NCBI GenBank assembly: GCA_016873755.1
Contig: VGWB01000001.1
Span: forward strand, 3,387-67,386
Length of the DNA stretch: 64,000 bases
From: Ignavibacteria bacterium
Lineage (GTDB): Bacteria; Bacteroidota; Ignavibacteria; UBA10030
Direction: 5' to 3'
In this document: in pieces, positions 10,977 through 45,429 of the stretch
How positions within the stretch are numbered: the first letter of the stretch is position 1
How the letters are laid out: each line of letters opens with the position of its first letter
Made by a program: the position numbers and the translations under genes
Notes under the pieces: generated by a model
Seen by the model: only the letters and a program-made list of their open reading frames with translations
Databases searched by the model: none
Told to the model about the DNA's origin: nothing

Positions 10977-13900
10977 TCACCGCTTCGGCTTGAACGCAAG
11001 CTTGAGCGTTTTGATTTCAAATGGTGAGAACTTGAGCGTAAGCTTCGATTTCACTGGCTTAAGCGGCGCCAGATCGTTCTCCAACATATCGCATTCCGCT
11101 ACAGCTTCAAGCCGCGCGCCGAATTCAAATGTAACCTTGGCGGGTTGACCGTGCGCTTCGTGGATCCGGACGATCACATCGTCGCTATCCTCTGCCTTCT
11201 TGATGCAATCGACGATGATGCTCGAACTTGCATAGCTGATCAACGGGCTGATTCGGTCCGCCGATCCCCGAATAACAAGTGGGACCTGATTGAATTCACG
11301 CGCCCGCTGAAGGGTCTCACCGGTCCGCCAATCGCCGGCGTGGGGATAGAGCGCGTAGCTGAGTTGATGGTCCCCTTGATCCGTGACCCGATTGTCGGTC
11401 AACCGCAACGGATCAAGAGGATGGGGATAGTGGGGTGAGCGGAGCAGTGTCAGCCGAAGCCTGTTCTCGCTCGCATCGTATCCGTACTTGCAGTCGTTGA
11501 TGAGACTGACGCCCGCTTTCTGCTCGGACAGATCGGCCCACTGCTGTGCGGGGACTTCGTACATCGCTCTGTGTCGGAGCTCCGTTGGCTTCGTGGTGCG
11601 CTGCAGCGCACCGAATTGGATCTCGTAGGTCGCATTGCTTGTCTTGACGTTCAGCGGGAACGAAACCTTCAGCAGAGTCTGCTTCTCTTTCCACCGAACG
11701 GAGGTCAGGAAATCGATGCGCCGGGACTTGTGATAGAACCTGATGTCCTGAGAGACGCTCGAGCCGCTATCCGATTTGTGCTCGATCCGAATCGCCGCCC
11801 GGAGCGGGCCCATCTCCAGGATTCGAATTCTGTTGAATTTCAGAAGTTCAAACTGCTTGCTCGGATACTCGGGATCGATCTCCCAGGCATCCCACTGCTT
11901 TGGAGTATCCTTGAAGCTCTGGAACACATTTGCACGCGCACCCTTGGCGATGAGCTCGCGCCGGAGTGTCTTGTCGTAGAGAGACGTGAAATGGCCCTTC
12001 GAATCGAGCCGCAAGCGATACAGCGGTGTGTCGACAAGGCGGTGGCTGATTTTCCACGGCGCAGCCGCAGCCGGCTGCGTGGTGCTCGGGCTGACGACAA
12101 GATTGGCGAAGGAAAACGGGGGGACGTTTTCCAGATAACAGAGCAGATGGACAATCCCTTTCTTCCGTCCAAGAATCTGATGGTCGACGGCCCTCCCATG
12201 GTCGTCGAGCACAAGGAAGTTCTTCCCTTTCGACTTCACCTCGAGGAGTACATACTCGTTCCGTTTCCATGCAAGCGGATTGAATATCGCAAAATCGTAC
12301 TCGCGCGTTCTTCGCTTCACGTTCTTCACAAGGCCGGAGAGTGCCCGGTGTTGCAGTTGTTCGCAGGTCCTGCGGATCTCTGCAAAATCCTTCCGCACGT
12401 CATCGAGCACTTCAGCAATGGAGGTCCCGGTGACGATGTCGTGGAACTGATTGAGCAACAACTTCTTCCACGCTTTCTCAATCTGATCCTGTTCGTAGCG
12501 GCGGGAGGCCGCTGTCGCGCCGAATATCCAGCCGAGAACGGACAGCAGCTCCGTGGCGTAGAGCTGCGATTCTGCTTGGCGGTTCTCGCGTTTCACCCAG
12601 CCGAGCGTCGTGTACGTTCCGCGGTGTTTCTCCAGGTACAGCTCGTCATCCCATGTCTCCAGCTCACCCGCGTGCTCCTCAACCACTTTGAAGAATCCTG
12701 TGACCGATGAGAACGTTGAGGGAGGCAATCCAACGATCGTGCGCAGGATTCTCCAGGATTCGATCTGTTCCTTCGTTGGTCCACCACCGCCATCACCAAA
12801 ACCGAATGTCTGAAGAGTCTCCGGACTCTCTTCTTTCTCAACGAATCCCTCCCAGCTCTTCTTGAGATCTTTCGGTGCTATTGATCCTTCCAACCCCACC
12901 GCGGGTGCATGCGAGAGCACCTTTGAGCCGTCAATTCCCTGCCACCAGAAGGTGTTGTGGCGGAATTTCGTCGTGTCGTTCCAGGTGAGCTTGGTTGTGA
13001 AGAAATACTTGATTCCAGTCTTCTTCAGTATTTGCGGGAGCGCCCAGCTATAGCCGAAGCTGTCCGGCAGCCACAAGACATCAGAATCTAGTCCAAATTC
13101 CCTCCTGAAGAACCGCTTTCCGTGGAGAATCTGACGCACCAACGATTCTCCGTTTGGGATGTTGCAGTCAGGCTCCACCCAGGTCGAGCCGATGGGATGC
13201 CAGCGGCCTTCGCTGACCTTCTGCTTGATCTCCTTGTAGAGGTCAGGATACTTCTCCTTGACTAACTCGTACAGCAAGGCCTGGGACTGCGTGTAGGAAA
13301 GCTCGGGGAATTCCTCCATCAAGCGCAAGACCGTTGAGAACGTTCGCGCACACTTACGTTTTGTCTCCTGCAATCTCCAGAGCCACACAACATCGATGTG
13401 CGATTGCGCGATGAGGTGAATGAGCCCCTGGATGTCAGTTTTGTACTCGGTTTCGAGAGTTCTCGAAAGAAAATTGTACGCGCGTACGATCGCGTTGGGA
13501 TACTCCTCTCCCTCGGGCTTGAAATATTTCAAGAAAACGAGGGTCTGACGGATGATCTCTCGTACCTCTTTCGACTCCGGGGTGGATTGGCCGGCGGTCC
13601 TTTCCAGCTCGTGAAGCGCGAGAAGACCATGGTAGAGCAAGCGAGCGGTGGGATTGAGGGTAACAAGTTCAGCAGAGTTGAACGTGCTCAACTCGCTCCT
13701 CCGTCCGCTGTATGCCTCGATGGCGACGAGGAAGCTCTGGTTCGTACGTGCCCTTGTGGTAAGAAGGACCTCCTGGTGGTGTGAATCGACCCCGTGGTAG
13801 GGCTTTCCGTTCAGGTACAGGAGCGATTCAGGCAGGTCGAGGAGCAGTGCGACGGGTTTCCCCGAAAACTCCCGGGGCACTCTGACGCGCCTTCGGAACC

Positions 13901-14090
13901 AGACCGTCTTGTCGTAGCCGCCCCACGGGGCGGGAATAGTGTATTTCCACCACTTCGTATCATTCAGAGACGGTGACGCTGCATGAGGAAATTCCCCTTC
14001 TTTCAATTTCCAGTCGGACAAAGGGACAGATGCCGGATAGATGTGGCTCTTGATGAAGGGGAGAGTCTGGGTGAGGAGATCGATTGCCAT
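10977..14090 (-). CDS. Glycoside hydrolase family 38 alpha-mannosidase; cytoplasmic (no signal peptide), with a ~230-aa N-terminal extension
   Basis: 1037 aa. The GH38 catalytic-region motif 'HIDVVWLWRL' (HxDxxWLW) and the aromatic-rich central and C-terminal domains are present. No N-terminal hydrophobic segment. Confidence 0.85.
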   Translation of the reverse strand: MAIDLLTQTLPFIKSHIYPASVPLSDWKLKEGEFPHAASPSLNDTKWWKYTIPAPWGGYDKTVWFRRRVRVPREFSGKPVALLLDLPESLLYLNGKPYHGVDSHHQEVLLTTRARTNQSFLVAIEAYSGRRSELSTFNSAELVTLNPTARLLYHGLLALHELERTAGQSTPESKEVREIIRQTLVFLKYFKPEGEEYPNAIVRAYNFLSRTLETEYKTDIQGLIHLIAQSHIDVVWLWRLQETKRKCARTFSTVLRLMEEFPELSYTQSQALLYELVKEKYPDLYKEIKQKVSEGRWHPIGSTWVEPDCNIPNGESLVRQILHGKRFFRREFGLDSDVLWLPDSFGYSWALPQILKKTGIKYFFTTKLTWNDTTKFRHNTFWWQGIDGSKVLSHAPAVGLEGSIAPKDLKKSWEGFVEKEESPETLQTFGFGDGGGGPTKEQIESWRILRTIVGLPPSTFSSVTGFFKVVEEHAGELETWDDELYLEKHRGTYTTLGWVKRENRQAESQLYATELLSVLGWIFGATAASRRYEQDQIEKAWKKLLLNQFHDIVTGTSIAEVLDDVRKDFAEIRRTCEQLQHRALSGLVKNVKRRTREYDFAIFNPLAWKRNEYVLLEVKSKGKNFLVLDDHGRAVDHQILGRKKGIVHLLCYLENVPPFSFANLVVSPSTTQPAAAAPWKISHRLVDTPLYRLRLDSKGHFTSLYDKTLRRELIAKGARANVFQSFKDTPKQWDAWEIDPEYPSKQFELLKFNRIRILEMGPLRAAIRIEHKSDSGSSVSQDIRFYHKSRRIDFLTSVRWKEKQTLLKVSFPLNVKTSNATYEIQFGALQRTTKPTELRHRAMYEVPAQQWADLSEQKAGVSLINDCKYGYDASENRLRLTLLRSPHYPHPLDPLRLTDNRVTDQGDHQLSYALYPHAGDWRTGETLQRAREFNQVPLVIRGSADRISPLISYASSSIIVDCIKKAEDSDDVIVRIHEAHGQPAKVTFEFGARLEAVAECDMLENDLAPLKPVKSKLTLKFSPFEIKTLKLAFKPKR

Positions 14091-14222
14091 CGGTGTGATG
14101 TCAGTCAGAATGGGCCAGTCGCGATCAACATTCGGTAAAACCGGCTAGAAAATAGGCATTGTTAGGTGATATGTCAAGTGAGTTCACGGCAAGGGATTGC
14201 GTGAGCTGGGATGATGCATTTC

Positions 14223-14251
14223 TTGACATTTTCGGGGGTTTGGAGTAATTT
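14223..14251 (+). promoter_or_regulatory. Sigma70-like promoter (TTGACA-N17-TAATTT), about 200 nt upstream of the giant T9SS cargo gene
   Basis: TTGACA at 14223-14228, a 17-nt spacer, then TAATTT at 14246-14251. It lies in the 330-bp divergent intergenic region, which would give a long 5' leader. Confidence 0.4.
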
Positions 14252-14465
14252 GGCAGGGGGAGAAACCAGCCTTACCGTTTGAAGTCGAACGATCTCGCTT
14301 GTTCGAAATCACAGCCAGTCACGCCGTCAGACTGTATTTCATGGAGAAAGGGATCTTAAGCTGTGCACCGATGGACTTCACTGATTTTCTCATCACCAGC
14401 TTCAGGAATCCGCGTACTCTTTGTCTTCTGTCAAGAACGTCCAGCATCCAATGCGTGAGGTTCCA

Positions 14466-17400
14466 ATGAAGAGTCTACTGATACCCTTCGTGTCCCTATC
14501 GCTTCTCGGATTCGCAGAGGCTCAGGATCTGAACTGGGAGCGAACAAGCGGCCCGCCTAGCGGCAAGGTGTTAGCTTTGGCCATCAGCGGGACGAACATC
14601 TTTGCAGGGGCAAGTGGTGGGGGCGTGTTTCTTTCGACGAACAATGGGACGACCTGGATTGCAGTGAACACTGGGTTGACGAACTTGGATGCTGGCGCAC
14701 TTGCCGTCAGCGGGACGAATCTCTTTGCGGGGACGTCTGGTGGTGTTTTTCTTTCCACGAACAACGGAACAAGCTGGACAGCGGCAAACAATGGATTGAC
14801 GAACACGAATGTTCTTGCCTTGGCTGTGAGCGGGTCGAACATCTTTGCGGGAACGTTTGGTGGTGTTTTTCTTTCCACGAACAACGGAACAAGCTGGACG
14901 GCGGTAAACACTGGGTTGACGAACACGATTATTTACGCATTGGCCGTGAGCGGGTCGAACATCTTTGCGGGGACATATGGTGGCGGTGTTTTTCGTTCGA
15001 CGAACAACGGAACAAGTTGGACAGCGACAAGCAGTGGGCTAACGAATTTGTATGTGCAGGCATTTGCCGTTAGCGGGACGAACATGTTTGCGGGGACATC
15101 CGGTGGTGGTGCCGTGTTCCTCTCAACGAACAACGGAACAAGCTGGACGGCGGTCAACACTGGGTTGACGAACATAAATGTTTTTGCCTTGGCGGTGAGT
15201 GGCGCGAACACCTTTGCGGGAACGGAGTTTGGTGGTGTTAATCTTTCGATGAACAACGGAAAGAGTTGGACGGCCGTCAACAATGGGCTGACGAATATGA
15301 ACGTTCGGGCATTGGCTGTGAGTGGGGCCAATATCTTCGCCGGGACGTGGGGAGATGGTGTTTTCCGGAGCTCGCTGCCTGCCAGTCTCCTTCCGTCTAT
15401 TCCGGAACAAGAGCCGAACAACACGGCAGGCCAGGCGAATCAAATAGCACTTGGAGATATTGTCGCCGGCTCCTTTTCCGTCCCCGGTGATGTTGACTAT
15501 TTCAAGCTCAACCTTGCTGCTCTTGATACGATCGATCTGCTTGGAAGCAACGCGGCAGGCTCGACCATCGATGCATATCTGAAGTTGTACGATGCATCCG
15601 GCAACCTCCTGGAGGAGAGTGACGACTTTCTGAGCACGGAGGCATCTCGCATCATCTGCGTGATTCCCTCCGGTGGGACATATTATATACGGTATGCTTG
15701 CCATCCAACGGGCGGGGAATATCCGAATGCGGTTGGCAAAAAGTCCGGTGCTCACTCGAACGATCTCAGCGAGCTTGAGAGTGTGACTCTGCTTCAGAAG
15801 TCCGTCCCTGCGCTTTCCGATACGGGAAGCTACCGGCTGATTGTTCGGAGGTTCAGGCCATCCGCTCCTCAGGTCAGAACGTCGGGGGGCTATAACATCT
15901 TCCACAATTCGGCCGCGTTTGATGGTGATTTCTACCCCAACGGTCTTCCTACAGCGCTGACCGTCGAGTACGGAACAACAACCGGCTACGGTTCCATGCG
16001 GCTGTTGGCAACGGCTCTCGATATCTTCGGCCAGTACTGTTCCGATGAGTTGCAGTCATTGTCTCCCAACACGGAATACCACTACCGACTCGTTGCGACA
16101 AACAGTCTCGGCAGGTCCGAGACAGCGAACGAGTCCTTCACCACTCCTCCGGCGCCGGATGGCTGGGTACGCGTACGGACGGGGACGACGCCCCTACTCA
16201 GGAATGTCGCTTTCGCGAATGTCAGCCTAGGCATGGCGGTTGGCGGAGACGGCTTGATCCTGAAAACGACGGACGGGGGGAGTTCGTGGACGCCTCTGAC
16301 CAGCAACACGTACGAGTATCTTCGCGGCATCGCGCTGGCGAGCCCGAGTGTTGCTCTTGCAGTCGGCAACAGCGGCACGATCCTGCGGACGACCGACGGA
16401 GGCACGACGTGGATAAGCAGGGCTTCAGGTACCACCTTGGAATTGACGGACGCTTGTTTCTCGGATGCGAACACGAGTGTCGTCGTTGGGAACGGCGGAT
16501 CAATGTTACGCACAACGGACGGCGGAGTGTCGTGGAATTCGATCAATAGCGGGACGACGCAGAATTTCCGCGGCGTGGATTTCGGAAACCCGAGCATCGG
16601 CATCGCCGTTGGAGCGAGCGGAACCATTCTCCGCACAACCGATGGTGGGAAGTCGTGGACGCTTGTGACCAGTCCGGTACCGGATTTCCTGTACAAAGTC
16701 TATATGGTAAATGAAAGAGTTGGCTTCGTGGCCGGAGCCGCGGGGATATTGCTGAAGACAACCGACGGTGGATCCTCCTGGGTGCGATTGACGAGCGGGA
16801 CTGACGCAATGCTCATCGGCATCTCCTTCTCGGACGAGCGAAATGGGATTACCGTGGGATTTGACCATCGATTGCTGCGGACGAAAGACGGCGGGGCAAC
16901 CTGGGCGAATGAGGAGAGCGGCACGTGGAACGATCTCTACGGCGCGGTGTTCGCGGGGACGAGTGCAATTGCGGTGGGAGACCACGCGACCGTGCTTCGA
17001 AAGGACATGGGGCCAGGCGCTGCCATCTCGGTTCAAGTGTTGAGTCCGAACGGCGGCGAATTCTGGAATGAGGACCTAGGTCACCGCATTCGCTGGCAGG
17101 CGAGCGAAAGCTCCGGGAAGACGATCAGCCGAATTCAAATCCTATACTCCGTGGATAACGGTGCTCACTATAGCGTCATCTTTGACTCTGTTGCCAACAC
17201 CGGCTCGCGCATCTGGGCAACTCCACGGACTCCGACCAAGGATGCGCGCGTGAGGGTTGTGGCTTATACCCCTGACGGCGCGTCTGCCTGGGACGAAAGC
17301 GATGCTCCCTTCACGATTGTGGATGTGGCGACATACGTACATCACACAGGTGTGCTTGCCCACACCGTGCGAAATGACGGCTTCACCGGCAGCGGAGGCG

Positions 17401-20021
17401 GGACCTACGATCCGGCTGAGCCCTCGCTCGAGTTTCCGCCGGGAAGCAAGAGACACTACCTGTATCTAGGGCAACTGATGGTCGGCGCTGTAACTGCATC
17501 TGGGGATACAATGGCGAATCTTGCCTATTCGGATGAGTTCCTGCCGGTTGCATCCATTGATACCAGGAGGTTCCCCAGCGTGTCGTATAGCGGATTTCGC
17601 TTCCTGATGAAACAGGCGCTGGGGCTGCAAATCGATCAGACCACATATTCCGTGATGAACGAATCGTACCTGTTGATGGGGTACGAAATCTCCAACAAGG
17701 GGATCTTCAAGTTCTCGAACATATACGTCGGATTCTATTGCGACTACGACCTCAACGATGCCGCGAAGAACCTGAGCGGGTACGATAGTGCGAACAGGCT
17801 TGGGTACGTGTTCGATCCGTCAGGCGGGTGGGGCGGATACGCGGGGATTCGGGTGCTCAGTCATACCTCCTCGACATTCCGTCGGTGGAGCGCGACGGTT
17901 CAACCTGAGCCACGAAATCCAGGTGACTTCTATCGGTCGATGGCGAAGCTCGGCAGCGACGATCCGTCGGCCGATCAACCTGCGGACTACCGCGTCCTGC
18001 AATGCGTCGGGCCGGTAACGCTTGCACCGGGAGAATCCGTGGCCTTCGTAGTTGCCGTTGCGGTCGGCGAAGGGTTGAGCGGCCTCCGCAACGCGGTGGA
18101 TCAGGCACAGAAGTTCCACGACATGCTTGTCAGTCCAGCTCCCGGGGTGATAACTGATCCTGCTTCGAACGTGACCTCCAGCTCGGCTAGGCTGAATGCG
18201 ACAGTCGATACGAGGGGACTGAGCACGACTGTGGTGTTCGAGTACGGAACGTCAACGAGCTACGGGAAGCAAGTTACGGCCGCGGGAAGTCCGTTTACTG
18301 CTGCCGACGCCATAACGGTCAGCGCCGATGTCACCGGGCTTACGGGCTCGACGACATATCATTACCGTGTGGTGGCAACGAACTCCGCCGGTACAACGCC
18401 GGGTCGGGACCAATCGTTTGTCACTCTCGCCAGTGGTACGATCGCAGTCACCTCAACACCGACAGTCTGGGCTACCGGCTTCGCGTACCCCGTAACGTGG
18501 ACGAGCAACAATGTCGCGGGCACCGTCACCATCAGGTTGTCGACGAACGGTGGCGCGTCCTATACGACGATCGGCGAATTTGCGAACACCGGTAGCGCCT
18601 CTGTGACGGTTCCAACATCGGCTTCACCTTCTACCAATTGTAAGCTTCGGATCTCGTCCACGCTGAATTCGGCGGTTTTTGGCGAGAGCGGGACGTTCAC
18701 CATTGTCTCCGGCACACGACCCACATCCATCCAGCTCTCCAACACCGTGAGCTTCCCAAGTCAGCCGACCGCGTCGACGGCGTACCGCTTGGTGAGCTTC
18801 CCCGGTGATGTCAGTTCGTTGCGTCTCAACCAGATTCTGAGCGGTACATCGCCGTACGATTGGCGCGTATTCCGAGACAACGGCAACTCGTCGAATTTCC
18901 TCGTTGAGTTCGCAGGAACCTCCACCCTCACAGTCGGTGAGGGATATTGGATGATCAACAAAGGATCGTTCACACTTTCGAGATCAGTGCCAATCGTGAC
19001 GCTCAGCAGCGACGCGAGCGCAAGCATTCCGCTGCATAGCGGTTGGAACATTATCGGCAATCCCTTTGAAAAGAGCGTCACGTGGACGGCGGTGCTGGCC
19101 GCAAATGGAATCTCGCCATCGGTATCAACGCGTATCTTGGACTACAACGGCTCGTACACATCAAGCAACTCGCTCGATCCATATAAGGGTTACTACTACT
19201 TCAATGCTGCCGGCGCGAGCTCGTTGAGGATTCCATATCCTTTTGGAACAAAGATGGAGTCCCCCTTCCAGCTTCCTCCCGTTGACTGGCAACTGAAGGT
19301 CTCCTATGCGTCCGACATCAACGAGGATCCTGAGAATTTCGTAGGCGTCGCCCCGGCGGCAACGGAGGGGTTTGACATGCTCGAAAGCTACAAACCGCCG
19401 TTGTTTATGGATCAAGCATTTGTCTATTTTGAGCGGCCGGAGTGGAATCAAGAGTACAGCTACTTCAGCGGTGACTATCGTCCCTCACTGGGCGATGGGC
19501 AGGTGTGGGATTTCGTCGTCCGCAATCCTCGCAAGTCGACCGGCACGCTGAAATTCTCTGGTGTCGAACAGGTCCCGTCAGACTATGCCATCAGACTGGT
19601 CAATCTCTCGAACGCGCGCCCGGTCGATCTCAGAGAGCAGAACGAGTATTCCTATCGCACGACTGACGTCATTACCAGATTCAAACTCATAATTGGAAAG
19701 CAACAATTCGTGGACCGCGCTCTGGTCGATGTGGTGCCCGAGAGCTTTGAGCTTCTCCAGAACTATCCGAACCCGTTCAACGCCGGAACGACGATCCTCT
19801 TCCGCGTCCCGCGTGAAAGTCGGGTTCAGCTGGATATCGTCTCCATGCTCGGCCAGAAGGTGAAGACGCTCGTAGAGGACTGGCTCGGTGCAGGGACGCA
19901 CTCCGTCACGTGGGATGGAGCAGACGCCGAGGGAAGACCGGTTGCGAGCGGCGTCTATTTCTACCGGCTCAGCTCGGACGGACAGCGCGTTCAAACAAAG
20001 AAACTCACTGTTCTGAAATAA
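14466..20021 (+). CDS. Giant secreted multidomain surface protein, cargo of the type IX secretion system. Domains: BNR/Ycf48-like beta-propeller repeats, a pre-peptidase C-terminal (PPC) domain, fibronectin type III domains and a C-terminal T9SS sorting domain.
   Basis: The signal peptide 'MKSLLIPFVSLSLLGFAEAQ' begins at 14466; in-frame starts also exist at 14421 (TTG) and 14451. Seven ~37-aa repeats of the form 'GTNIFAGTSGGVFLSTNNGTSWTAVNTGLTN' follow, then 'GDVDYFKLN' (PPC). Fibronectin-III-like segments read 'YHYRLVATNSLG' and 'YHYRVVATNSAG'. A second propeller has 'TTDGGxSWT' units. The C-terminus 'LLQNYPNPFNAGTTILF...GVYFYRLSSDGQRVQTKKLTVLK' is a canonical T9SS sorting domain. Confidence 0.85.
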   Translation: MKSLLIPFVSLSLLGFAEAQDLNWERTSGPPSGKVLALAISGTNIFAGASGGGVFLSTNNGTTWIAVNTGLTNLDAGALAVSGTNLFAGTSGGVFLSTNNGTSWTAANNGLTNTNVLALAVSGSNIFAGTFGGVFLSTNNGTSWTAVNTGLTNTIIYALAVSGSNIFAGTYGGGVFRSTNNGTSWTATSSGLTNLYVQAFAVSGTNMFAGTSGGGAVFLSTNNGTSWTAVNTGLTNINVFALAVSGANTFAGTEFGGVNLSMNNGKSWTAVNNGLTNMNVRALAVSGANIFAGTWGDGVFRSSLPASLLPSIPEQEPNNTAGQANQIALGDIVAGSFSVPGDVDYFKLNLAALDTIDLLGSNAAGSTIDAYLKLYDASGNLLEESDDFLSTEASRIICVIPSGGTYYIRYACHPTGGEYPNAVGKKSGAHSNDLSELESVTLLQKSVPALSDTGSYRLIVRRFRPSAPQVRTSGGYNIFHNSAAFDGDFYPNGLPTALTVEYGTTTGYGSMRLLATALDIFGQYCSDELQSLSPNTEYHYRLVATNSLGRSETANESFTTPPAPDGWVRVRTGTTPLLRNVAFANVSLGMAVGGDGLILKTTDGGSSWTPLTSNTYEYLRGIALASPSVALAVGNSGTILRTTDGGTTWISRASGTTLELTDACFSDANTSVVVGNGGSMLRTTDGGVSWNSINSGTTQNFRGVDFGNPSIGIAVGASGTILRTTDGGKSWTLVTSPVPDFLYKVYMVNERVGFVAGAAGILLKTTDGGSSWVRLTSGTDAMLIGISFSDERNGITVGFDHRLLRTKDGGATWANEESGTWNDLYGAVFAGTSAIAVGDHATVLRKDMGPGAAISVQVLSPNGGEFWNEDLGHRIRWQASESSGKTISRIQILYSVDNGAHYSVIFDSVANTGSRIWATPRTPTKDARVRVVAYTPDGASAWDESDAPFTIVDVATYVHHTGVLAHTVRNDGFTGSGGGTYDPAEPSLEFPPGSKRHYLYLGQLMVGAVTASGDTMANLAYSDEFLPVASIDTRRFPSVSYSGFRFLMKQALGLQIDQTTYSVMNESYLLMGYEISNKGIFKFSNIYVGFYCDYDLNDAAKNLSGYDSANRLGYVFDPSGGWGGYAGIRVLSHTSSTFRRWSATVQPEPRNPGDFYRSMAKLGSDDPSADQPADYRVLQCVGPVTLAPGESVAFVVAVAVGEGLSGLRNAVDQAQKFHDMLVSPAPGVITDPASNVTSSSARLNATVDTRGLSTTVVFEYGTSTSYGKQVTAAGSPFTAADAITVSADVTGLTGSTTYHYRVVATNSAGTTPGRDQSFVTLASGTIAVTSTPTVWATGFAYPVTWTSNNVAGTVTIRLSTNGGASYTTIGEFANTGSASVTVPTSASPSTNCKLRISSTLNSAVFGESGTFTIVSGTRPTSIQLSNTVSFPSQPTASTAYRLVSFPGDVSSLRLNQILSGTSPYDWRVFRDNGNSSNFLVEFAGTSTLTVGEGYWMINKGSFTLSRSVPIVTLSSDASASIPLHSGWNIIGNPFEKSVTWTAVLAANGISPSVSTRILDYNGSYTSSNSLDPYKGYYYFNAAGASSLRIPYPFGTKMESPFQLPPVDWQLKVSYASDINEDPENFVGVAPAATEGFDMLESYKPPLFMDQAFVYFERPEWNQEYSYFSGDYRPSLGDGQVWDFVVRNPRKSTGTLKFSGVEQVPSDYAIRLVNLSNARPVDLREQNEYSYRTTDVITRFKLIIGKQQFVDRALVDVVPESFELLQNYPNPFNAGTTILFRVPRESRVQLDIVSMLGQKVKTLVEDWLGAGTHSVTWDGADAEGRPVASGVYFYRLSSDGQRVQTKKLTVLK
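14570..15360. repeat. Intragenic tandem array of ~111-bp near-identical DNA repeats, about 7 units encoding 37-aa propeller-blade repeats
   Basis: Long, nearly identical stretches recur at 111-bp spacing, e.g. 'ctttgcggggacgtctggtggtgtttttctttccacgaacaacggaacaagctggac...'. Confidence 0.8.
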
Positions 20022-20031
20022 AGGAACTGCA

Positions 20032-20580
20032 ATGAGGATCTCTCGCGTATATCGGTATCGACGGCAGGTAATCGCAGGCCTCATTCTTCCACTGCTCATC
20101 TGGTGCGTGAATTCAACAGCGTTCGCGGCACCGGCGCCGCAGGATGAACTCAGGATTACTATCAAGGCGGTGGAAGTGAAGCCGGACTACATCATCGTCT
20201 CGTACGAGCTGGTGGCCCCTGCTGCGGACTCCTACGAAGTGAGCCTGGTCCTCCTGAGAGAGGGAAGCTCCTCCTTCAGAATCCCTGTGCGCGCTGCGTC
20301 CGGAGACATCGGAGAGGGGAAATTCGCCGGCGGTGTTCGGCAGGTGCGCTGGGAGTTTGGTAAGGACTATCCGCGCGGTCTCTCCGGGGAGGGTTTCTAT
20401 TTCGAGATCTCAGTCAGTAAAGTGAAAAGCAGTAACCTCTTGTTGTACGTCGGTCTCGGCGGCCTTGCAGCAGTTGGTGGGGCCGTGGCACTCTTAGCAG
20501 GTGGTAAGAAAAGCGAAGGCACAACGTCGACGCCGTCCCCGGCCGAACTGCCGATGCCACCCGCGCGTCCGACGAACTAG
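20032..20580 (+). CDS. Small single-pass membrane protein of unknown function: signal/anchor, ~110-aa extracytoplasmic domain, C-terminal transmembrane helix, Pro-rich tail
   Basis: It starts 10 nt after the giant gene stop. The N-terminal hydrophobic segment is 'VIAGLILPLLIWCVNSTAFA'. The C-terminal transmembrane helix is 'LLLYVGLGGLAAVGGAVALLAGG', followed by KK. Confidence 0.5.
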   Translation: MRISRVYRYRRQVIAGLILPLLIWCVNSTAFAAPAPQDELRITIKAVEVKPDYIIVSYELVAPAADSYEVSLVLLREGSSSFRIPVRAASGDIGEGKFAGGVRQVRWEFGKDYPRGLSGEGFYFEISVSKVKSSNLLLYVGLGGLAAVGGAVALLAGGKKSEGTTSTPSPAELPMPPARPTN

Positions 20581-20675
20581 GCATCTGACCGAAAGCTAGG
20601 ACTTCGCGTTCTAGCGGTGGGTGTATGAATGTTCTCTTCAGATCGCTTCTGCATTCTAGAGGGAGGAAATTCCCG

Positions 20676-23003
20676 ATGAGAACCCTTACAACGGTTTTGG
20701 TCTGTTTGGTGTTGCTCGCACAGACCGTACAGGGCCAGGTGAAGGCGAGGAGCCAAACGTTCTCAATCCAGCCCCCTGCCCGGCCTGCATCGCTGAGCGC
20801 TACGGCCGAGTTCAGTGAGCCGTCAGGAAACGGCTACCTGGATGCCGGCGAGAAAGGCACAATTAACGTGACCGTTGCCAACTCCGGCGGCACGGCTGCA
20901 AAAAATGTTGTGGCGAGGCTCAGTGCCGAAGGGAGCACTCCAGGCCTGGTGTTGACCGACCGAGTCACAATAGGCGAGATCGCCTCAAATGCGTCCGGGA
21001 CCGGAATGATCGAAGTGACGGCGCTGGGGACGGTGCAGACCGGACTTTTGAAGTTCACCGTGGAGGTTGTGGCAGACAACAACGTCAAAGCGGAACCGAA
21101 ATCCCTGAGCTTCTCGACACTCGCTGCTGCCGCGCCCGCGACGCTTGCTGTGACAGTCGAGTTCTCGGAGCCGTCGGGCAACAAGCTTCTTGATGCAGGG
21201 GAAAAAGGAACGATCAAGGTCACCGTATCGAATACGGGGGGCAGTACGGCGAAGAACGTCTTGGCGAAGCTCAGTTCTGCTGCTACGGCAGTTGGCATCG
21301 ACTTCTCAAAATCCGTGACGATCGGCGATGTTGCTCCCAGCAGCACACGAGCCGGCCAGTTTGAAGTATCGGCCTTTGACTACGTCCAGAGTCAAACGTT
21401 TTCTTTGACGGTTGAGGTGAGCGCCGACAATGGAGTCAAGGCAGATCCCCGGCCCGTCTCCTTCTCGACCCGCGCAGCTGTTAGGCCGGCCATCCTCGCG
21501 GCGACCGTCCAGTTCTCCGAGCCGTCGGGGAACGGAATCCTTGATCCGGGCGAGACAGGGACAGTGACTGTATCGATTACGAACACGGGAGGAACACCGG
21601 CCAAGGGTGTCATCGTAAGGGCGAAGACGCAAGTCGATGTCAGCGGCGTGACGTTTCCGGCAGTCGTGCAGGTAGGGGACATCGCCCCCACTGCTTCAGG
21701 CACAGCGAGGATTCCGGTCCAGGCTTCGGAGACGGTGCGCTCACAGACGATCTCGCTTACCCTTGAAGCGGCGGATGCCGGAGGCATTGCGGCCGAAGCG
21801 AAGACACTGGCTATCACAACGAGGGAAAGGGTGTTGGCCCGAGACACGGCGCCTCCCGACATCGAAGTCTGGGAACCCGTTGTCACCGCGTCCCGCGGTG
21901 TGAAGATTGTTCCAAGTGATTCAAAGTTTGCGACGCAGAGCTCTTCTGTCATTGTGAGGGGCATCGCGAAAGATACCAGCGGTGTCGCTGTCGTGACCAT
22001 TAACGGCCAGGAGGCAAGACTCTCAACGGGAGCGGAAGGATTCGAATTTGTCGGAGAGGCGCTGCTCGTCCTTGGCGAGAATGACGTTGAGGTGCGAGCC
22101 CTCGATCGGTTCAAAAATGAGAACAAGCTCACGTTTAGGGTCACGAGGAATCCCGAGACCCTCGCAGAAAGGAGACAAATCCCGGCAGCCCTGTTCAAAG
22201 GGCAGCGATGGGCCGTTATCGTCGGCATCTCGAGATACCGCTCGACGGATATCCCGCAGCTTCGGTATGCCGACCAGGATGCCCAGGAGTTCTACAAAAT
22301 CATGACCAAATCGATCGAGGAGGGAGGAGTGGGAGTGCCGAAAAGCAATGTCCGATTTCTCCTCAACGATCAGGCGACTTCGACGAATGTCCGAGAGGCG
22401 CTCACCGATTTCCTGAAGCTTGCCATCGAGGATGACTACGTTTTTATCTACTTCGCGGGACACGGAGCACCGGACCCGGATCGCCCCAAGATTCTCTATC
22501 TTCTCACGCACGATTCGGATTTGAACCGCCTTGCCGCCACATCGGTGAAAATGCAGGAGATTCAGGACGCTCTCCGGGACTACGTTGCTGCGAAGACCGT
22601 GCTTGTCTTTGCCGACGCCTGTCACAGCCGAGGCGTCACTGGAGCTGTGGCGACGAGGGCCCTTGCTCCTCCGGAGCTCGTCAACGACTTTCTCTCTGAA
22701 CTTGCCCGGGCGCGCGCAAGCACGATGACCTTCAGCGCAAGCGACGTGAACCAGCTCTCGCAAGAGGATAAGCGCTGGGGAGGTGGCCACGGCGTGTTTA
22801 CCTGGTATCTGCTTGAGGGACTACGTGGTAAAGCCGACCTGAACAGCGATCAGATGGTGCGGTTGGGAGAGCTCACCCAATTCGTCAGCGACAATGTTCG
22901 GCGCGACACGAGATCGCAGCAGAGCCCGATCTCCAGCGGGAATTTTGACATCAACTTGCCCCTCACCATCGTGACGGATAGACCGTCTCCAGAAAAACGC
23001 TGA
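20676..23003 (+). CDS. Secreted caspase-like cysteine peptidase (peptidase C14, metacaspase/orthocaspase type) with four N-terminal ~115-aa repeat domains, possibly CARDB-like
   Basis: RBS GGGAGG, then the signal peptide 'MRTLTTVLVCLVLLAQTVQG'. The unit 'AEFSEPSGNGYLDAGEKGTINVTVANSGGTAAKNV...' recurs four times. The C-terminal domain has 'RWAVIVGISRY', the catalytic His in 'IYFAGHGAPD' and the catalytic Cys in 'VFADACHSRG', the metacaspase D-A-C-H-S motif. Confidence 0.8.
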   Translation: MRTLTTVLVCLVLLAQTVQGQVKARSQTFSIQPPARPASLSATAEFSEPSGNGYLDAGEKGTINVTVANSGGTAAKNVVARLSAEGSTPGLVLTDRVTIGEIASNASGTGMIEVTALGTVQTGLLKFTVEVVADNNVKAEPKSLSFSTLAAAAPATLAVTVEFSEPSGNKLLDAGEKGTIKVTVSNTGGSTAKNVLAKLSSAATAVGIDFSKSVTIGDVAPSSTRAGQFEVSAFDYVQSQTFSLTVEVSADNGVKADPRPVSFSTRAAVRPAILAATVQFSEPSGNGILDPGETGTVTVSITNTGGTPAKGVIVRAKTQVDVSGVTFPAVVQVGDIAPTASGTARIPVQASETVRSQTISLTLEAADAGGIAAEAKTLAITTRERVLARDTAPPDIEVWEPVVTASRGVKIVPSDSKFATQSSSVIVRGIAKDTSGVAVVTINGQEARLSTGAEGFEFVGEALLVLGENDVEVRALDRFKNENKLTFRVTRNPETLAERRQIPAALFKGQRWAVIVGISRYRSTDIPQLRYADQDAQEFYKIMTKSIEEGGVGVPKSNVRFLLNDQATSTNVREALTDFLKLAIEDDYVFIYFAGHGAPDPDRPKILYLLTHDSDLNRLAATSVKMQEIQDALRDYVAAKTVLVFADACHSRGVTGAVATRALAPPELVNDFLSELARARASTMTFSASDVNQLSQEDKRWGGGHGVFTWYLLEGLRGKADLNSDQMVRLGELTQFVSDNVRRDTRSQQSPISSGNFDINLPLTIVTDRPSPEKR

Positions 23004-23039
23004 GGATCTGCCGTCGGCAATCGATCCGGAGATTTCCGG

Positions 23040-24704
23040 ATGCCGCCTGGCGGGAAAGGTACTATGATCCTATCATCGTCGATCAGGTTTCGCACTCTTC
23101 TTCTGGGCATCGCAGCAACTGCTGTGCTCTCCGCTCCCGCCCGGCCTCAGGTTCTCGCCCCACCGCGTGCGCTGAGGGTGCAGATCTCAGTGAATCACCC
23201 GAATCTGGTGTATCGTGAAGGTGATACTCTGCGAGTGTCGGTCACCGCGAACAAAAACTGCTACCTTCGGCTCATGTACTGCGAGGCGAGTGGAAAGGAC
23301 GTGGTCATCTTCCCGAACTACCAGGACATGGACGACAAAGTTCAGGGCGGGGTCGAGTACGTCATCCCGACGAAGTTCCAGATAACGCAGCCGCTGGGGA
23401 GCGAAGCTCTGCATGCGTTCGTAAGTTCGGAGAAGTTCTCGACGCTGGACGGCCTCGATCGTGGCGATGGCCTGATCGTGTTGAAAGAGCCCATAGAGAG
23501 GGTGCTCACGAAGCTGAGGTCAGGCGGGATTTTTGGGGAATATGCGGAACAGAGGTTGGAGATCATCACGAGGGCAAAGGAAGTCGCTGCATCCGAGGCA
23601 CCACAAATCAAACCGCCTTGGATTGAACTCGTACAGCCGGGTCCGAGCGATTTTCTTGTCGATCAGCGAGATACGGTCACGATCGAGGGTCTTGTGACAG
23701 GGGATGATCTTGTTACGCCCGTCCTCATCAACGGGAAACCCGTTCAGACGGAGAAGATCTCCTCAGGCCTGCAATTCAGTCTCTCGGTGGGATTGGTGGT
23801 GGGCGAAAACACGTTCGAGGTCGTCGCGAGGAATGCTCATCATCAAACGACGACGAAGTCCCTGGTAGTTAAGAGGGCAGAGAACAGGTTCGCTGGAAAG
23901 CGGTGGGCAGTAGTGATCGGGATCAGCGAGTACAAACATCCTGAGATCCACGACCTGAAGTATGCACATCGCGACGCGGAGGCGTTCTACGAGTTCTTGA
24001 AGAGCGCCAATGGGGGAGCGTTCGCCGACGATCATACCTTGCTCCTCACAGACGCAAAAGCCACAAAGGCGAACGTGCGGAGCGCGGTCTTCGACTTCTT
24101 GAAGCAGACGAGCGAGGAAGATCTGGTGATGATCTACTTCTCCGGACACGGTCTGAGCAGAGGCAAAGGATACTCCTACTTTGTGACACACGACAGTGAT
24201 CCGTACCGAATGGAAGAGACAGCGTTTGACATGGAAGATATCCAGGCCGCGCTGCGAAAGACGATCCAGGCGGAACGCGTGGTGATCTTCGCGGACGCGT
24301 GCTACAGTGGTGCAATCAATGACTATGTCAAAGGGACCCGAACAACTCAGCTCGAAGAGAATCTGATCAACCGATATTTGTCCGAGATGGCAAAGGCCAA
24401 GCCGGGCATCGTCTCTGTGACCTCGTGCGCCGAGAACGAAGTCTCGGGAGAAGCCTGGCTCTTCTGGGAGCACGGAGTGTTTACGTTCGTTCTCATTTCT
24501 GGTTTGGGAGGGAAGATCATTGATACTGAAGGACGAGTGAAGACGTTTGAAAGCGCCGACGCGGACGGGGACGGGATTGTCACTGTCAGCGAGCTTACTC
24601 AATATGTTACAAAGTATGTCCCGGGATATACCAAGAACAAGCAGAATCCCCAGGTTAGCAAATCCAATTTCGATCCAAATACTCCTCTGAGTGTTATTCG
24701 CTAA
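23040..24704 (+). CDS. Second secreted caspase-like cysteine peptidase (C14), with an N-terminal DUF4384-like domain
   Basis: The signal peptide is 'MILSSSIRFRTLLLGIAATAVLSA'. The N-terminal domain 'LRVQISVNHPNLVYREGDTLRVSVTANKNCYLRLMY' resembles the DUF4384 domain often found with caspase-like proteins; this is unverified. The C14 domain has 'RWAVVIGISEY', the His in 'IYFSGHGLS' and the Cys in 'IFADACYSGA'. Confidence 0.75.
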   Translation: MPPGGKGTMILSSSIRFRTLLLGIAATAVLSAPARPQVLAPPRALRVQISVNHPNLVYREGDTLRVSVTANKNCYLRLMYCEASGKDVVIFPNYQDMDDKVQGGVEYVIPTKFQITQPLGSEALHAFVSSEKFSTLDGLDRGDGLIVLKEPIERVLTKLRSGGIFGEYAEQRLEIITRAKEVAASEAPQIKPPWIELVQPGPSDFLVDQRDTVTIEGLVTGDDLVTPVLINGKPVQTEKISSGLQFSLSVGLVVGENTFEVVARNAHHQTTTKSLVVKRAENRFAGKRWAVVIGISEYKHPEIHDLKYAHRDAEAFYEFLKSANGGAFADDHTLLLTDAKATKANVRSAVFDFLKQTSEEDLVMIYFSGHGLSRGKGYSYFVTHDSDPYRMEETAFDMEDIQAALRKTIQAERVVIFADACYSGAINDYVKGTRTTQLEENLINRYLSEMAKAKPGIVSVTSCAENEVSGEAWLFWEHGVFTFVLISGLGGKIIDTEGRVKTFESADADGDGIVTVSELTQYVTKYVPGYTKNKQNPQVSKSNFDPNTPLSVIR

Positions 24705-44898: not shown

Positions 44899-45429
44899 GT
44901 GTCATCCGTGGGTTCAAACGGAAGAATGAACCGTAAGGTGCTCGTGTTGAACCACAACTACGAGCCTCTCAGCGTCTGCAACATCAAGAAAGCTGTCGTC
45001 CTTCTCTACCTCGGAAAAGCCGAGTTGATCGAAGCCTCTGACGGTAGATTTCTGCATTCCGTGTCGATGACGATGCCGTTTCCGAGCATCGTTCGCCTTT
45101 CTGTCTACGTTCGAGTCCCCTACAAGAAAATCGTTCTGTCAAGGAAGAATATTCTGCGGCGCGATGGGCATAGATGTCAATACTGTGGTCGGGGGGATGT
45201 CCCATTAACGGTGGATCATGTTGTGCCGAAGGCGCGCGGTGGCGAGGATGCATGGGAGAATCTGGTGTGTGCCTGTGTGAGGTGCAACAACAAGAAAGGG
45301 GACCGACTCCCCAGCGAAGCCCAGATGAGTCTTATCCGAAGGCCCATCCGGCCCAATCACGTTATGTTCATTCGGGATTTCGTCGGCAGCGTAGATGACC
45401 GATGGAAGCCCTATTTGTATATGAATTGA
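44899..45429 (+). CDS. HNH endonuclease family protein
   Basis: 'RRDGHRCQYCGR...LTVDHVVPKARGG...WENLVCACVRCNNKKG' is an HNH motif with a Zn-finger Cys quartet. The N-terminal 'VLVLNHNYEPLSV' region is conserved. An alternative start lies at 44926. Confidence 0.8.
   Translation: MSSVGSNGRMNRKVLVLNHNYEPLSVCNIKKAVVLLYLGKAELIEASDGRFLHSVSMTMPFPSIVRLSVYVRVPYKKIVLSRKNILRRDGHRCQYCGRGDVPLTVDHVVPKARGGEDAWENLVCACVRCNNKKGDRLPSEAQMSLIRRPIRPNHVMFIRDFVGSVDDRWKPYLYMN

What the first reader, a model, noticed from the sequence alone, without database searches (positions are those of the whole stretch)
14466..20021. 1866-aa T9SS cargo protein combining two beta-propellers, a PPC domain and fibronectin-III modules, expressed from a long leader
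The C-terminal 'NYPNPFN...YFYRL...KLTVLK' sorting domain unambiguously marks type IX secretion. The propeller repeats are Asn-substituted BNR/Ycf48-like blades ('STNNGTSWT', 'TTDGGSSWT'). A sigma70-like promoter (14223-14251) lies about 200 nt upstream of the start, leaving a long leader with regulatory potential. This looks like a lineage-specific surface adhesin or binding protein. Its function cannot be inferred beyond carbohydrate or ligand binding.
Basis: partly seen in the sequence, partly recalled or inferred. Interest (0 to 1): 0.5.

Follow-up and report, generated by a model that had tools for sequence, protein, structure and literature searches.

The report
Modular secreted surface protein of Ignavibacteria
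This is a real gene for a very large protein, made only of binding-type modules, that is almost certainly exported to the cell surface by the type IX secretion system; that part is ordinary, but the gene belongs to a conserved, undescribed trio with a small membrane protein and secreted caspase-like proteases.

Summary
The gene is 14466-20021 (+) and encodes 1851 aa, not 1866, which is the longest ORF from a TTG at 14421. An identical protein is already in NCBI as 'T9SS type A sorting domain-containing protein [Ignavibacteria bacterium]'. Both seven-bladed Asp-box propellers are real. The PPC and fibronectin-III matches fall just below the Pfam cutoffs.

New here:
- A 350-aa two-sandwich module always sits directly before the sorting domain in more than 50 relatives.
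- No catalytic domain was found.

The TTGACA-N17-TAATTT promoter is conserved in six related loci. The roughly 208-nt leader shows no RNA structure signal and no Rfam match.

At orthologous loci the passenger modules are swapped, while the C-terminal 540 aa, a 182-aa membrane protein and the caspase-like peptidase genes stay linked. This trio recurs in about 20 metagenomic loci.

Verdict: an ordinary new member of the T9SS cargo class, probably a surface binding protein. The linked caspase module is the part worth following.

The parts
14223..14251 (+). Sigma-70-like promoter: -35 TTGACA (14223-14228), 17-nt spacer, -10 TAATTT (14246-14251)
   Evidence: Sequence. The hexamers and the spacing are invariant and the spacer sequence varies in window, L001, L005, L006, L007 and L008. 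The consensus scan does not report it because the -10 matches only 3 of 6 positions. The transcription start has not been mapped.
14149..14177 (-). Divergent promoter-like site TTGACA-17-TATTTT facing the GH38 alpha-mannosidase gene (10977-14090, minus strand)
   Evidence: Consensus scan, 10 of 12 matches. The block is conserved in the three-locus alignment and in L006-L008.
14258..14465 (+). Inferred 5' leader of about 208 nt; the first ~120 nt are conserved and the rest is not
   Evidence: Alignments A4 and A8. MFE z-score is +1.14. No Rfam match. Consensus fold is -7.6 kcal/mol with a positive covariation term.
14466..20021 (+). Coding sequence of the 1851-aa cargo protein, stop codon included
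   Evidence: It is 100% identical to P0001, and orthologues P0002 and P0003 are 60% and 55% identical. Start codon supported.
14466..14522 (+). Sec signal peptide (residues 1-19, predicted cleavage AEA|Q)
   Evidence: Read directly from the translation. No signal-peptide predictor was available.
14523..15380 (+). Propeller 1 (residues ~20-305): six S-T-N-N-G-T-S-W Asp-box-like blades plus a closing blade; also a DNA tandem repeat
   Evidence: Sortilin-Vps10 50.9 bits. NF045728 scores 110 bits, below its cutoff of 175. Match to GH74 structures at E = 6e-5. Motif positions. Tandem repeat of period 123 nt, 6.4 copies, at 14577-15364.
15408..15890 (+). PPC-like beta-sandwich (residues ~315-475)
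   Evidence: PF04151 at E = 2.4e-4, 22.4 bits against a cutoff of 25.9. PF04151 is recorded on homologues P0003, P0013, P0018 and P0048.
15897..16154 (+). Fibronectin-III-like module a (residues ~478-563), of the PhoD_N / purple-acid-phosphatase-N type
   Evidence: Pur_ac_phosph_N at E = 1e-4 and fn3 at E = 0.009. It is 37% identical to module b, E = 5e-14.
16158..17021 (+). Propeller 2 (residues ~565-852): Ycf48-like, six T-T-D-G-G-x-S-W blades plus a closing blade
   Evidence: PSII_BNR 98.8 bits against a cutoff of 27. Ycf48 structures 5ojp and 2xbg match at E about 1e-20. Motif positions.
17028..17315 (+). Ig-like linker domain 1 (residues ~855-950)
   Evidence: Related to Ig-like domain 2 (E = 3e-6). 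No family match. The fold was not modelled.
17316..18131 (+). Unannotated beta-supersandwich domain (residues ~951-1222) with invariant D1093, D1095 and D1174
18138..18425 (+). Fibronectin-III-like module b (residues ~1225-1320)
   Evidence: PhoD_N 29.0 bits against a cutoff of 30; fn3 23.1 against 25. Related to module a.
18429..18701 (+). Ig-like linker domain 2 (residues ~1322-1412); the segment conserved among orthologous loci begins here
   Evidence: The 67%-identical stretch shared with the L006 protein begins at residue 1316.
18702..19751 (+). Conserved pre-CTD module ('Cmod', residues ~1413-1762): two beta-sandwich domains joined by a flexible linker
19752..20018 (+). T9SS type-A C-terminal sorting domain (residues ~1763-1851)
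20032..20580 (+). 182-aa small protein, 10 nt downstream: N-terminal signal/TM, beta-rich ectodomain (SGDIGEGKF, GFYFEI), C-terminal TM, tail ELPxPPxRP
   Evidence: Translation. 69-70% identical in orthologous loci and 33-35% in distant ones. 93 clusters, all unnamed and without Pfam. No family match.
20625..23003 (+). Secreted caspase-like peptidase 1 (CARDB/DUF11-type repeats, Glucodextran_B-like domain, Peptidase_C14 with an H...C dyad)
   Evidence: NF047832 scores 100.9, below its cutoff of 140.
23040..24704 (+). Secreted caspase-like peptidase 2 (DUF4384, Glucodextran_B-like domain, Peptidase_C14 with an H...C dyad)

Best explanation
The gene encodes an 1851-aa modular protein.

Export route. 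A Sec signal peptide takes the protein to the periplasm. A type-A C-terminal sorting domain should then hand it to the type IX secretion translocon. By analogy with Porphyromonas cargo, that domain would be cut off and the protein tethered to the outer surface.

What the passenger does. It carries no recognisable catalytic domain. It is a chain of beta-rich binding modules: two seven-bladed Asp-box propellers, a PPC-like sandwich, two fibronectin-III-like and two Ig-like modules, and a galactose-mutarotase-like supersandwich. These sit on a conserved two-sandwich stalk. The most likely role is therefore a surface-displayed ligand-binding protein, probably glycan-binding, acting as an adhesin or capture protein.

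How it evolves. The outer modules are exchanged between related species, while the C-terminal 540 aa stay fixed.

Expression and partners. It is probably transcribed from a conserved sigma-70-like promoter about 208 nt upstream. It is probably co-transcribed with a small bitopic membrane protein and two secreted caspase-like cysteine peptidases, and these most likely mature or turn over the cargo.

Shown here: the domain content, the sorting-domain match, promoter conservation, and gene linkage. Inferred: export, surface attachment, ligand binding, co-transcription, and any action of the peptidases on the cargo.
For: Sorting domain: TIGR04183 scores above its cutoff, and the modelled fold matches solved sorting domains. 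A signal peptide is visible in the translation.

Fixed tail, variable head: the pre-CTD module lies at the C-terminus of 50 of the 120 best relatives. In orthologous loci the N-terminal propeller is shortened (P0002), replaced by FG-GAP repeats (P0003), or the whole passenger is replaced (L006). Meanwhile the last 540 aa are 62-67% identical.

Promoter: the hexamers are invariant in six loci.

Operon: the gaps between the four genes are 10, 44 and 36 nt, with no terminator-like or promoter-like site on the + strand in them.

Gene linkage: the small gene is followed within about 50 nt by a caspase-like gene in about 18 distinct loci. A cargo with the pre-CTD module lies immediately before or after the pair in most loci with enough sequence. 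There were no such hits in 57 control loci totalling 965 kb.
Against: - No T9SS machinery gene lies in the window, so export is inferred from the signal alone.
- Pfam's own sorting-domain model is just under threshold.
- Binding is inferred from folds that are mostly accessory domains of carbohydrate-active enzymes. No ligand site was identified.
- Three invariant aspartates in the supersandwich could mean catalysis or metal binding instead.
- Gene linkage does not show that the peptidases act on this protein.
- The conserved promoter block persists in L008, where a transposase-like ORF lies downstream, so it may serve the divergent GH38 gene.
Confidence: 0.6

Rival explanations
1. It is a secreted carbohydrate-active enzyme. 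On this view the propellers (GH74-like or sialidase-like) or the supersandwich with its three invariant aspartates form a catalytic site. The protein would then work with the neighbouring alpha-mannosidase and amino-sugar genes.
For: Propeller 1 matches GH74 structures weakly (E = 6e-5) and the 'F510_1955 family glycosylhydrolase' model at 110 bits. The supersandwich fold is typical of GH15, GH65, GH94, GH38 and GH92 enzymes and of aldose epimerases. D1093, D1095 and D1174 are invariant. The GH38, NanE, glucosamine-6-P isomerase-like and ROK genes are neighbours, and this neighbourhood is syntenic in related loci.
Against: NF045728 is far below its cutoff (110 against 175). The two propellers are separated by about 260 aa, not apposed as in GH74. 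In GH15, GH65 and GH94 the supersandwich accompanies a catalytic (alpha/alpha)6 barrel, which is absent here. Propeller 1 is dispensable or replaceable in orthologues. The same cargo type occurs in loci without GH38.
Confidence: 0.15
2. The cargo is the variable sensing or bait arm of an envelope conflict or defence module. The exchangeable passenger would recognise a phage, competitor or environmental ligand, and the linked caspase-like peptidases would execute the response.
For: The passenger is variable while the C-terminal module and the small-protein/caspase genes stay conserved. Caspase-like domains match a PADLOC caspase model and, below cutoff, the conflict-system-associated caspase model NF047832. 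CHASE2 sensor genes lie nearby in two distant loci.
Against: Both peptidases carry signal peptides and adhesion-type extracytoplasmic domains, unlike cytoplasmic abortive-infection caspases. NF047832 is below its cutoff (about 101 against 140). No NTPase, effector or other defence gene is present. The locus sits among housekeeping genes with normal composition.
Confidence: 0.1
3. The conserved TTGACA-N17-TAATTT block and the conserved DNA after it are control elements of the divergent GH38 gene (an activator or repressor site), not a promoter and leader of the cargo gene. The cargo gene would then be transcribed from an unrecognised promoter nearer its start.
For: The block lies 46-75 nt upstream of the GH38 -35 hexamer. 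It is kept in L008, where the downstream gene is a RAYT-like transposase ORF. It is absent from an orthologous cargo gene that is not next to GH38 (L072). The -10 matches only 3 of 6 consensus positions.
Against: Two invariant hexamers at exactly 17 nt with a freely varying spacer is the signature of a promoter rather than of a protein-binding palindrome. The -35 is a perfect TTGACA. The GH38-facing promoter uses a similar T-rich -10, TATTTT. The last ~110 nt before the ATG are not conserved and hold no better candidate.
Confidence: 0.2

Closest known systems
Type-A CTD cargo of the type IX secretion system (for example Porphyromonas gingivalis gingipains; mirolase of Tannerella)
   Same: N-terminal Sec signal plus an ~85-aa C-terminal beta-sandwich sorting domain matching TIGR04183. 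The fold is similar to solved sorting domains. Established knowledge: the sorting domain is the outer-membrane export signal, is removed by PorU, and type-A cargo is linked to anionic LPS (PMC4804311, PMC4560394 and PMC9143113 abstracts).
   Different: The host is an Ignavibacteria MAG, not Bacteroidota. No protease or other catalytic passenger is present. A conserved 350-aa two-sandwich module precedes the sorting domain where gingipains have a single Ig-like domain. The gene is linked to a small membrane protein and caspase-like peptidases.
Ycf48/HCF136 photosystem II assembly factor (seven-bladed propeller; PDB 5ojp, 2xbg)
   Same: Propeller 2 matches PF14870 at 98.8 bits and Ycf48 structures at E about 1e-20. 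Blades are about 41 aa and carry Asp-box-like turns.
   Different: The NF010237 equivalog score is 104.8 against a cutoff of 326. Here the propeller is one domain inside a secreted giant protein. Nothing links it to a photosystem.
GH74 xyloglucanases and BNR/Sortilin-Vps10 propellers
   Same: Propeller 1 shares the repeat type (Sortilin-Vps10 50.9 bits; 5fkt at E = 6e-5).
   Different: GH74 enzymes use two adjacent propellers that form a catalytic cleft. Here the propellers are separated by two other domains, and the glycosylhydrolase model NF045728 is not reached.
N-terminal beta-supersandwich (galactose-mutarotase-like) domain of GH15 glucoamylase/glucodextranase and GH94/GH65 phosphorylases
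   Different: Sequence identity is 8-15%, and no sequence model detects the relationship. There is no accompanying (alpha/alpha)6 catalytic domain. The domain has its own invariant D-x-D and D-Y-R motifs.
PorU, the clan-CD cysteine peptidase that acts as T9SS sortase
   Same: The linked Peptidase_C14 genes encode clan-CD His-Cys peptidases with signal peptides, next to a T9SS cargo. The clan assignment is from my own knowledge of MEROPS.
   Different: They belong to family C14, not the C25-like family of PorU, and have no sorting domain of their own. Any role in processing the cargo is a hypothesis.

Membership tests
T9SS type-A cargo | C-terminal ~80-aa domain matching TIGR04183 above its curated cutoff | tested here: met
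   40.7 bits against a cutoff of 23; residues 1767-1848, at the extreme C-terminus.
T9SS type-A cargo | Pfam PF18962 (Por_Secre_tail) above its gathering score | tested here: inconclusive
   25.6 bits against 27, E = 1.5e-5. The related FlgD_ig model passes (30.1 against 27).
T9SS type-A cargo | Sorting domain folds as the beta-sandwich seen in solved CTDs | tested here: met
T9SS type-A cargo | N-terminal Sec signal peptide | tested here: met
   MKSLLIPFVSLSLLGFAEA|QD, read from the translation. No predictor was run.
T9SS type-A cargo | T9SS machinery (SprA/Sov, PorV, PorU, PorK-N) encoded in the same genome | not testable with these tools
   Only 64 kb is available, and none of its genes is a T9SS component.
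T9SS type-A cargo | Export, CTD removal and surface attachment | not testable with these tools
   Needs proteomics or genetics.
T9SS type-B cargo (TIGR04131 / CHU_C) | Match to the type-B sorting-domain model | tested here: not met
   CHU_C scores 18.6 bits against 27. TIGR04131 is not among the NCBIfam hits at E <= 0.1.
Ycf48 (photosystem II assembly factor) | Equivalog-level match (NF010237) as a stand-alone ~330-aa lipoprotein | tested here: not met
   104.8 bits against a cutoff of 326. It is a domain inside an 1851-aa protein. Only the fold family PF14870 is met (98.8 against 27).
F510_1955-family / GH74-type glycoside hydrolase | Family model above cutoff; two apposed propellers | tested here: not met
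   NF045728 scores 110.2 against 175. The propellers are separated by residues 306-564.
PPC (bacterial pre-peptidase C-terminal) domain | PF04151 above its gathering score | tested here: inconclusive
   22.4 bits against 25.9, E = 2.4e-4, covering 67 of 70 profile positions. The label is present on homologues.
Fibronectin type III | PF00041 or a related fn3-type model above its gathering score | tested here: inconclusive
   fn3 23.1 against 25, PhoD_N 29.0 against 30, Pur_ac_phosph_N 22.8 against 30. The two copies are related to each other at E = 5e-14.
Galactose-mutarotase-like beta-supersandwich | Fold match to solved members | tested here: met
Galactose-mutarotase-like beta-supersandwich | Sugar-binding or catalytic residues of characterised members | not tested
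   Model coordinates could not be inspected. Only the invariant D1093, D1095 and D1174 are known.
Structured cis-regulatory leader RNA (riboswitch, attenuator) | Rfam match, excess folding energy, or covariation | tested here: not met
   No Rfam family at gathering score, and only a chance-level match at E <= 1. z = +1.14. The covariation term is unfavourable with five sequences.
Sigma-70-type promoter | -35 and -10 hexamers at 16-18 nt, conserved among relatives; mapped transcription start | tested here: inconclusive
   The -35 matches 6 of 6 and the -10 3 of 6, with a 17-nt spacer. The hexamers are invariant in six loci. The start site has not been mapped.

The most novel reading that the evidence does not exclude
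Cargo proteins ending in the 350-aa pre-CTD module, the ~170-180-aa bitopic 'SGDIG...PPxRP' protein and the secreted Glucodextran_B-C14 caspase-like peptidase form one undescribed functional system of FCB-group bacteria (more distant versions add a papain-like peptidase). In it, a dedicated clan-CD peptidase matures, releases or anchors a T9SS cargo whose passenger is freely exchangeable. That would be a cargo-specific counterpart of the PorU sortase step.
Probability: 0.3. Interest if true: 0.65.

Novelty: new member of a known kind. Interest (0 to 1): 0.35.

Why it matters
The gene itself adds one more uncharacterised T9SS cargo, and it is already labelled as such in NCBI. The by-products are of more use.

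- Two widespread domain families have no Pfam or NCBIfam model. One is a supersandwich domain found in at least 1142 protein clusters. The other is a pre-CTD stalk module present in dozens of large cargo proteins.
- The gene trio (cargo, small membrane protein, secreted caspase-like peptidase) is tightly linked and is not mentioned in the searchable literature.

If the peptidases act on the cargo, this would show cargo-specific processing in T9SS outside Bacteroidota. It would also give bacterial extracytoplasmic caspase homologues a concrete substrate.

The conserved promoter gives a rare footprinted example of a TTGACA-type promoter in Ignavibacteria.

Tried and rejected
- Word-indexed homology search with the 281-aa middle domain alone found nothing, although full-length hits contain the domain. 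The exhaustive search then found 1142 clusters. I treat the empty result as a limit of the tool.
- Profile searches of PDB sequences were empty for the middle domain. For the C-terminal module they hit only FlgD/PorU-type sorting domains.
- Leader: Rfam at gathering score for the whole window and at E <= 1 for the leader gave only a chance snoRNA match on the wrong strand. The single-sequence fold is no better than shuffles. The five-sequence consensus fold is weak with an unfavourable covariation term.
- By eye I looked for an ECF-type promoter (GGAAC...CGT) and for a second promoter around the conserved TGTATTTCA. The spacings (21-23 and 21-31 nt) do not fit.
- A 13-codon upstream ORF starting at 14341 is not conserved in L001.
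- An orthologous cargo gene away from GH38 (L072) lacks the promoter block, so no further leader sequences could be gathered.
- The AlphaFold-database fold library was not available.
- PADLOC and NCBIfam gave no name for the small protein, the pre-CTD module or the middle domain.
- Literature searches for Ignavibacteria with T9SS, for caspase with T9SS, and for DUF4384 found nothing on this module.
Full report
**1. The observation**

The window is uniform in composition, at about 53-58% G+C. It holds a single very long ORF on the + strand, 14421..20021, which is 1866 aa if read from a TTG. The title ('1866-aa') and the coordinates therefore disagree.

ATG 14466 is the better start for three reasons:
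- It is followed by a typical signal peptide, MKSLLIPFVSLSLLGFAEA|Q.
- The ATG and the following codons align with the starts of two orthologous genes, whereas the upstream in-frame ATG at 14451 is not conserved.
- A 100% identical 1851-aa protein (P0001) is already in NCBI/nr as 'MAG: T9SS type A sorting domain-containing protein [Ignavibacteria bacterium]'.

**2. Domain content**

Residue numbers count from M14466.

- Residues 20-305 hold six S-T-N-N-G-T-S-W turns spaced about 41 aa apart, plus a closing blade. They match Sortilin-Vps10/BNR-type models and, weakly, GH74 structures. At DNA level this region is a 123-nt tandem repeat of 6.4 copies with 74% matches.
- Residues 565-852 hold six T-T-D-G-G-x-S-W turns. 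They match PSII_BNR at 98.8 bits and solved Ycf48 proteins at E about 1e-20. The 'two propellers' claim is therefore confirmed.
- The PPC match (residues 342-409) scores 22.4 bits against a cutoff of 25.9.
- The fibronectin-III-type matches (residues ~478-563 and ~1225-1320) are also just under their cutoffs. The two copies are clearly related to each other (E = 5e-14), and homologues carry the same labels.
- Two ~95-aa segments (855-950 and 1322-1412) are related to each other (E = 3e-6) and look like Ig-type spacers. This was not modelled.
- The C-terminal 85 aa pass TIGR04183 (40.7 bits against 23) and narrowly miss PF18962 (25.6 against 27). The type-B model is not matched.

**3. The two stretches without any family match**

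*Residues ~951-1222.* These gave nothing in Pfam, even at E <= 5, nothing in NCBIfam and nothing in PDB sequences. An exhaustive search found 1142 protein clusters at E <= 1e-3 and 109 at E <= 1e-10. Most are large multi-domain proteins, and some are short proteins made of this domain plus a T9SS sorting domain.

The fold is thus the galactose-mutarotase-like supersandwich. It is nearly always found in carbohydrate-active proteins, but usually as an accessory to a catalytic barrel, and that barrel is absent here.

No catalytic domain was detected anywhere in the protein.

**4. Promoter and leader**

The consensus scan does not list the site, because the -10 matches only three of six positions.

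Alignment with orthologous intergenic regions shows both hexamers invariant, the spacing fixed and the spacer sequence free to vary. This holds in six loci: window, L001, L005, L006, L007 and L008. That pattern is good phylogenetic support for a promoter. A second conserved site on the other strand (TTGACA-17-TATTTT, 14177 to 14149) faces the divergent GH38 gene.

With a start near 14258 the leader is about 208 nt. Its first ~120 nt contain conserved blocks and the rest is not conserved.

There is no evidence that the leader is a structured RNA:
- no Rfam match;
- a folding energy no better than shuffled sequence (z = +1.14);
- a weak consensus fold with an unfavourable covariation term from five sequences.

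One caveat applies. In L008 the promoter block persists although a transposase-like ORF lies downstream. An orthologous cargo gene that is not next to GH38 (L072) lacks the block. The block could therefore belong to GH38 regulation.

**5. Orthologues and modularity**

Related Ignavibacteriaceae contigs keep the same neighbourhood: GH38 (divergent), cargo, a 181-aa ORF, two Peptidase_C14 genes, then an amidohydrolase. The cargo itself is mosaic:
- P0002 is 60% identical overall but has only two Asp-box blades plus a closing blade at its N-terminus.
- P0003 is 55-62% identical, carries FG-GAP repeats instead of propeller 1, and lacks fn3 module b.
- The L006 protein shares only the last 540 aa (67% identity). 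The rest of it is a different BNR-type passenger at 27-30% identity.

The small downstream protein stays 69-70% identical throughout. A fixed C-terminal unit with exchangeable outer modules is what one expects of a surface-exposed binding protein.

**6. The linked genes**

The next three genes follow after gaps of 10, 44 and 36 nt. No terminator-like or promoter-like site lies on the + strand in the gaps.

- *Small protein, 20032-20580.* It encodes a 182-aa protein with an N-terminal signal/TM segment, a beta-rich ectodomain (SGDIGEGKF, GFYFEI), a C-terminal TM segment and a tail ELPxPPxRP. It has no family match. Its 93 database clusters are all unnamed.
- *Peptidases, 20625-23003 and 23040-24704.* They encode signal-peptide-bearing proteins with adhesion-type domains, a Glucodextran_B-like domain and a Peptidase_C14 domain with intact His and Cys motifs.

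The same arrangement turned up around more distant proteins that carry the pre-CTD module:
- in the P0022 locus, as cargo, a 174-aa homologue, then C14;
- in the P0005 locus, as a 165-aa homologue, C14, then cargo.

A metagenome scan with the small-protein alignment returned 29 loci. HMM scans of all fetched loci gave three results:
- A caspase-like gene starts within about 50 nt downstream of the small gene in about 18 distinct loci. The only exceptions with room for it are L066, L080 and L094.
- A cargo with the pre-CTD module lies immediately upstream of the small gene or immediately downstream of the peptidase in most loci with enough sequence.
- There were no hits for any of the three in 57 unrelated control loci (965 kb).

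Three further distant homologues (P0304, P0349, P0315) all show the small gene followed by Glucodextran_B+C14. In these a papain-like Peptidase_C1 gene lies just upstream, and a T9SS-tail protein lies just downstream in two of the three.

I found nothing on this trio in the searchable literature.

**7. How it most likely works**

Shown:
- the signal peptide;
- the type-A sorting domain, by both HMM and fold;
- a passenger made only of binding-type beta modules;
- the conserved stalk;
- the conserved promoter;
- the tight linkage to the small protein and the C14 peptidases.

Established for the family, from Porphyromonas work: the sorting domain is the outer-membrane export signal, PorU removes it, and type-A cargo is attached to anionic LPS (abstracts of PMC4804311, PMC4560394 and PMC9143113).

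Inferred: this protein is exported by T9SS and displayed on the surface, where its propellers and supersandwich bind a ligand, most plausibly a glycan. The four genes form one operon. The secreted clan-CD peptidases mature or turn over the cargo.

One weak hint fits orthocaspases cutting after basic residues (PMC6426788 abstract). The linker between the two stalk sandwiches is the only low-confidence segment of the model, and it carries a Lys or Arg in 13 of 19 homologues.

The rivals are an enzyme, a conflict-system sensor arm, and a promoter block that belongs to GH38. None is excluded, and each is scored separately in this report.

**8. Comparison and novelty**

By the testable criteria the protein is a type-A T9SS cargo. 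It is not a Ycf48 orthologue (equivalog model 104.8 bits against a cutoff of 326). It is not a member of the F510_1955 glycosylhydrolase family (110.2 bits against 175). Whether the genome encodes the secretion machinery cannot be tested, because the window holds only housekeeping and sugar-metabolism genes.

As given, the finding is an ordinary new member of a very large and already annotated class. What is not described elsewhere is the supersandwich domain family, the pre-CTD module, and the cargo/small-protein/caspase trio.

**9. Verdict**

Interest is modest (0.35) and rests mainly on the linked caspase module rather than on the cargo itself.

Noticed in passing
window 20032-24704; loci L001, L005, L006, L065, L067, L068, L074, L079, L082, L084-L090, L092, L096-L099: There is a conserved gene trio: a T9SS cargo ending in the 350-aa pre-CTD module, a ~165-182-aa bitopic protein (SGDIG...GFYFEI...TM...PPxRP), and one or two secreted Glucodextran_B + Peptidase_C14 proteins. 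Gene order varies: the cargo comes either first or last. None of the three gave a hit in 965 kb of control loci.
   Followed up: yes
L067 1686-3056; L097 6616-8004; L098 6186-7577; L099 6562-7965: In more distant versions of the trio, a papain-like Peptidase_C1 gene of about 460 aa sits immediately upstream of the small gene. CHASE2-domain genes lie nearby in L098 and L099. The window has a second C14 gene (with DUF4384) instead.
   Followed up: partly
window 17316-18131: The middle domain belongs to a large family (1142 clusters at 50% identity) that has no Pfam or NCBIfam model. It has a supersandwich fold and invariant D-x-D and D-Y-R aspartates. Some members are short proteins consisting of this domain plus a T9SS tail (P0242, P0245, P0215).
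   Followed up: partly
window 14577-15364; P0002 N-terminus: Propeller 1 is encoded by a 123-nt tandem DNA repeat (6.4 copies). The orthologue P0002 has only three blades there. This could be real copy-number variation or an assembly collapse.
   Followed up: partly
L008 about 9000-9720 (minus strand of the locus): In UBA10030 the conserved promoter is followed by a RAYT/IS200-like transposase ORF instead of the cargo gene. The ORF (MELEQGKYYHIYNRGNN...) is flanked by repeated GAGACTTGACAAGTCTC palindromes, which look like REP elements.
   Followed up: no
L005 about 7350-7730: The gene call for P0003 appears truncated. An ATG that aligns with the window's start codon, followed by a signal peptide (MNRLKVISASLFLFALASAQ), lies about 380 nt upstream of the called start.
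   Followed up: no
window 14466-14525, 20676-20740: The predicted signal-peptide cleavage sites expose an N-terminal glutamine in the cargo (AEA|QD) and in caspase-like protein 1 (VQG|QV). This is the 'Q-rule' described for Bacteroidetes but reported not to hold across the whole FCB group (PMC5837995).
   Followed up: no
window 43726-44623 and 44899-45429: Two consecutive short ORFs carry the N-terminal and C-terminal parts of a chorismate-synthase-like protein. The usual GESHG motif reads GESDA, and only the C-terminal half matches Pfam, at E = 3e-8. This suggests a split or degenerate gene. An HNH endonuclease ORF follows.
   Followed up: no
window 24853-26613 and 26286-28400: The longest ORFs of the sodium:solute symporter and of the amidohydrolase overlap by about 330 nt. 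The amidohydrolase domain starts at residue ~167, and the orthologue in L001 is 600 aa, so the true start is probably downstream. L001 lacks the symporter gene between the caspase genes and the amidohydrolase.
   Followed up: no
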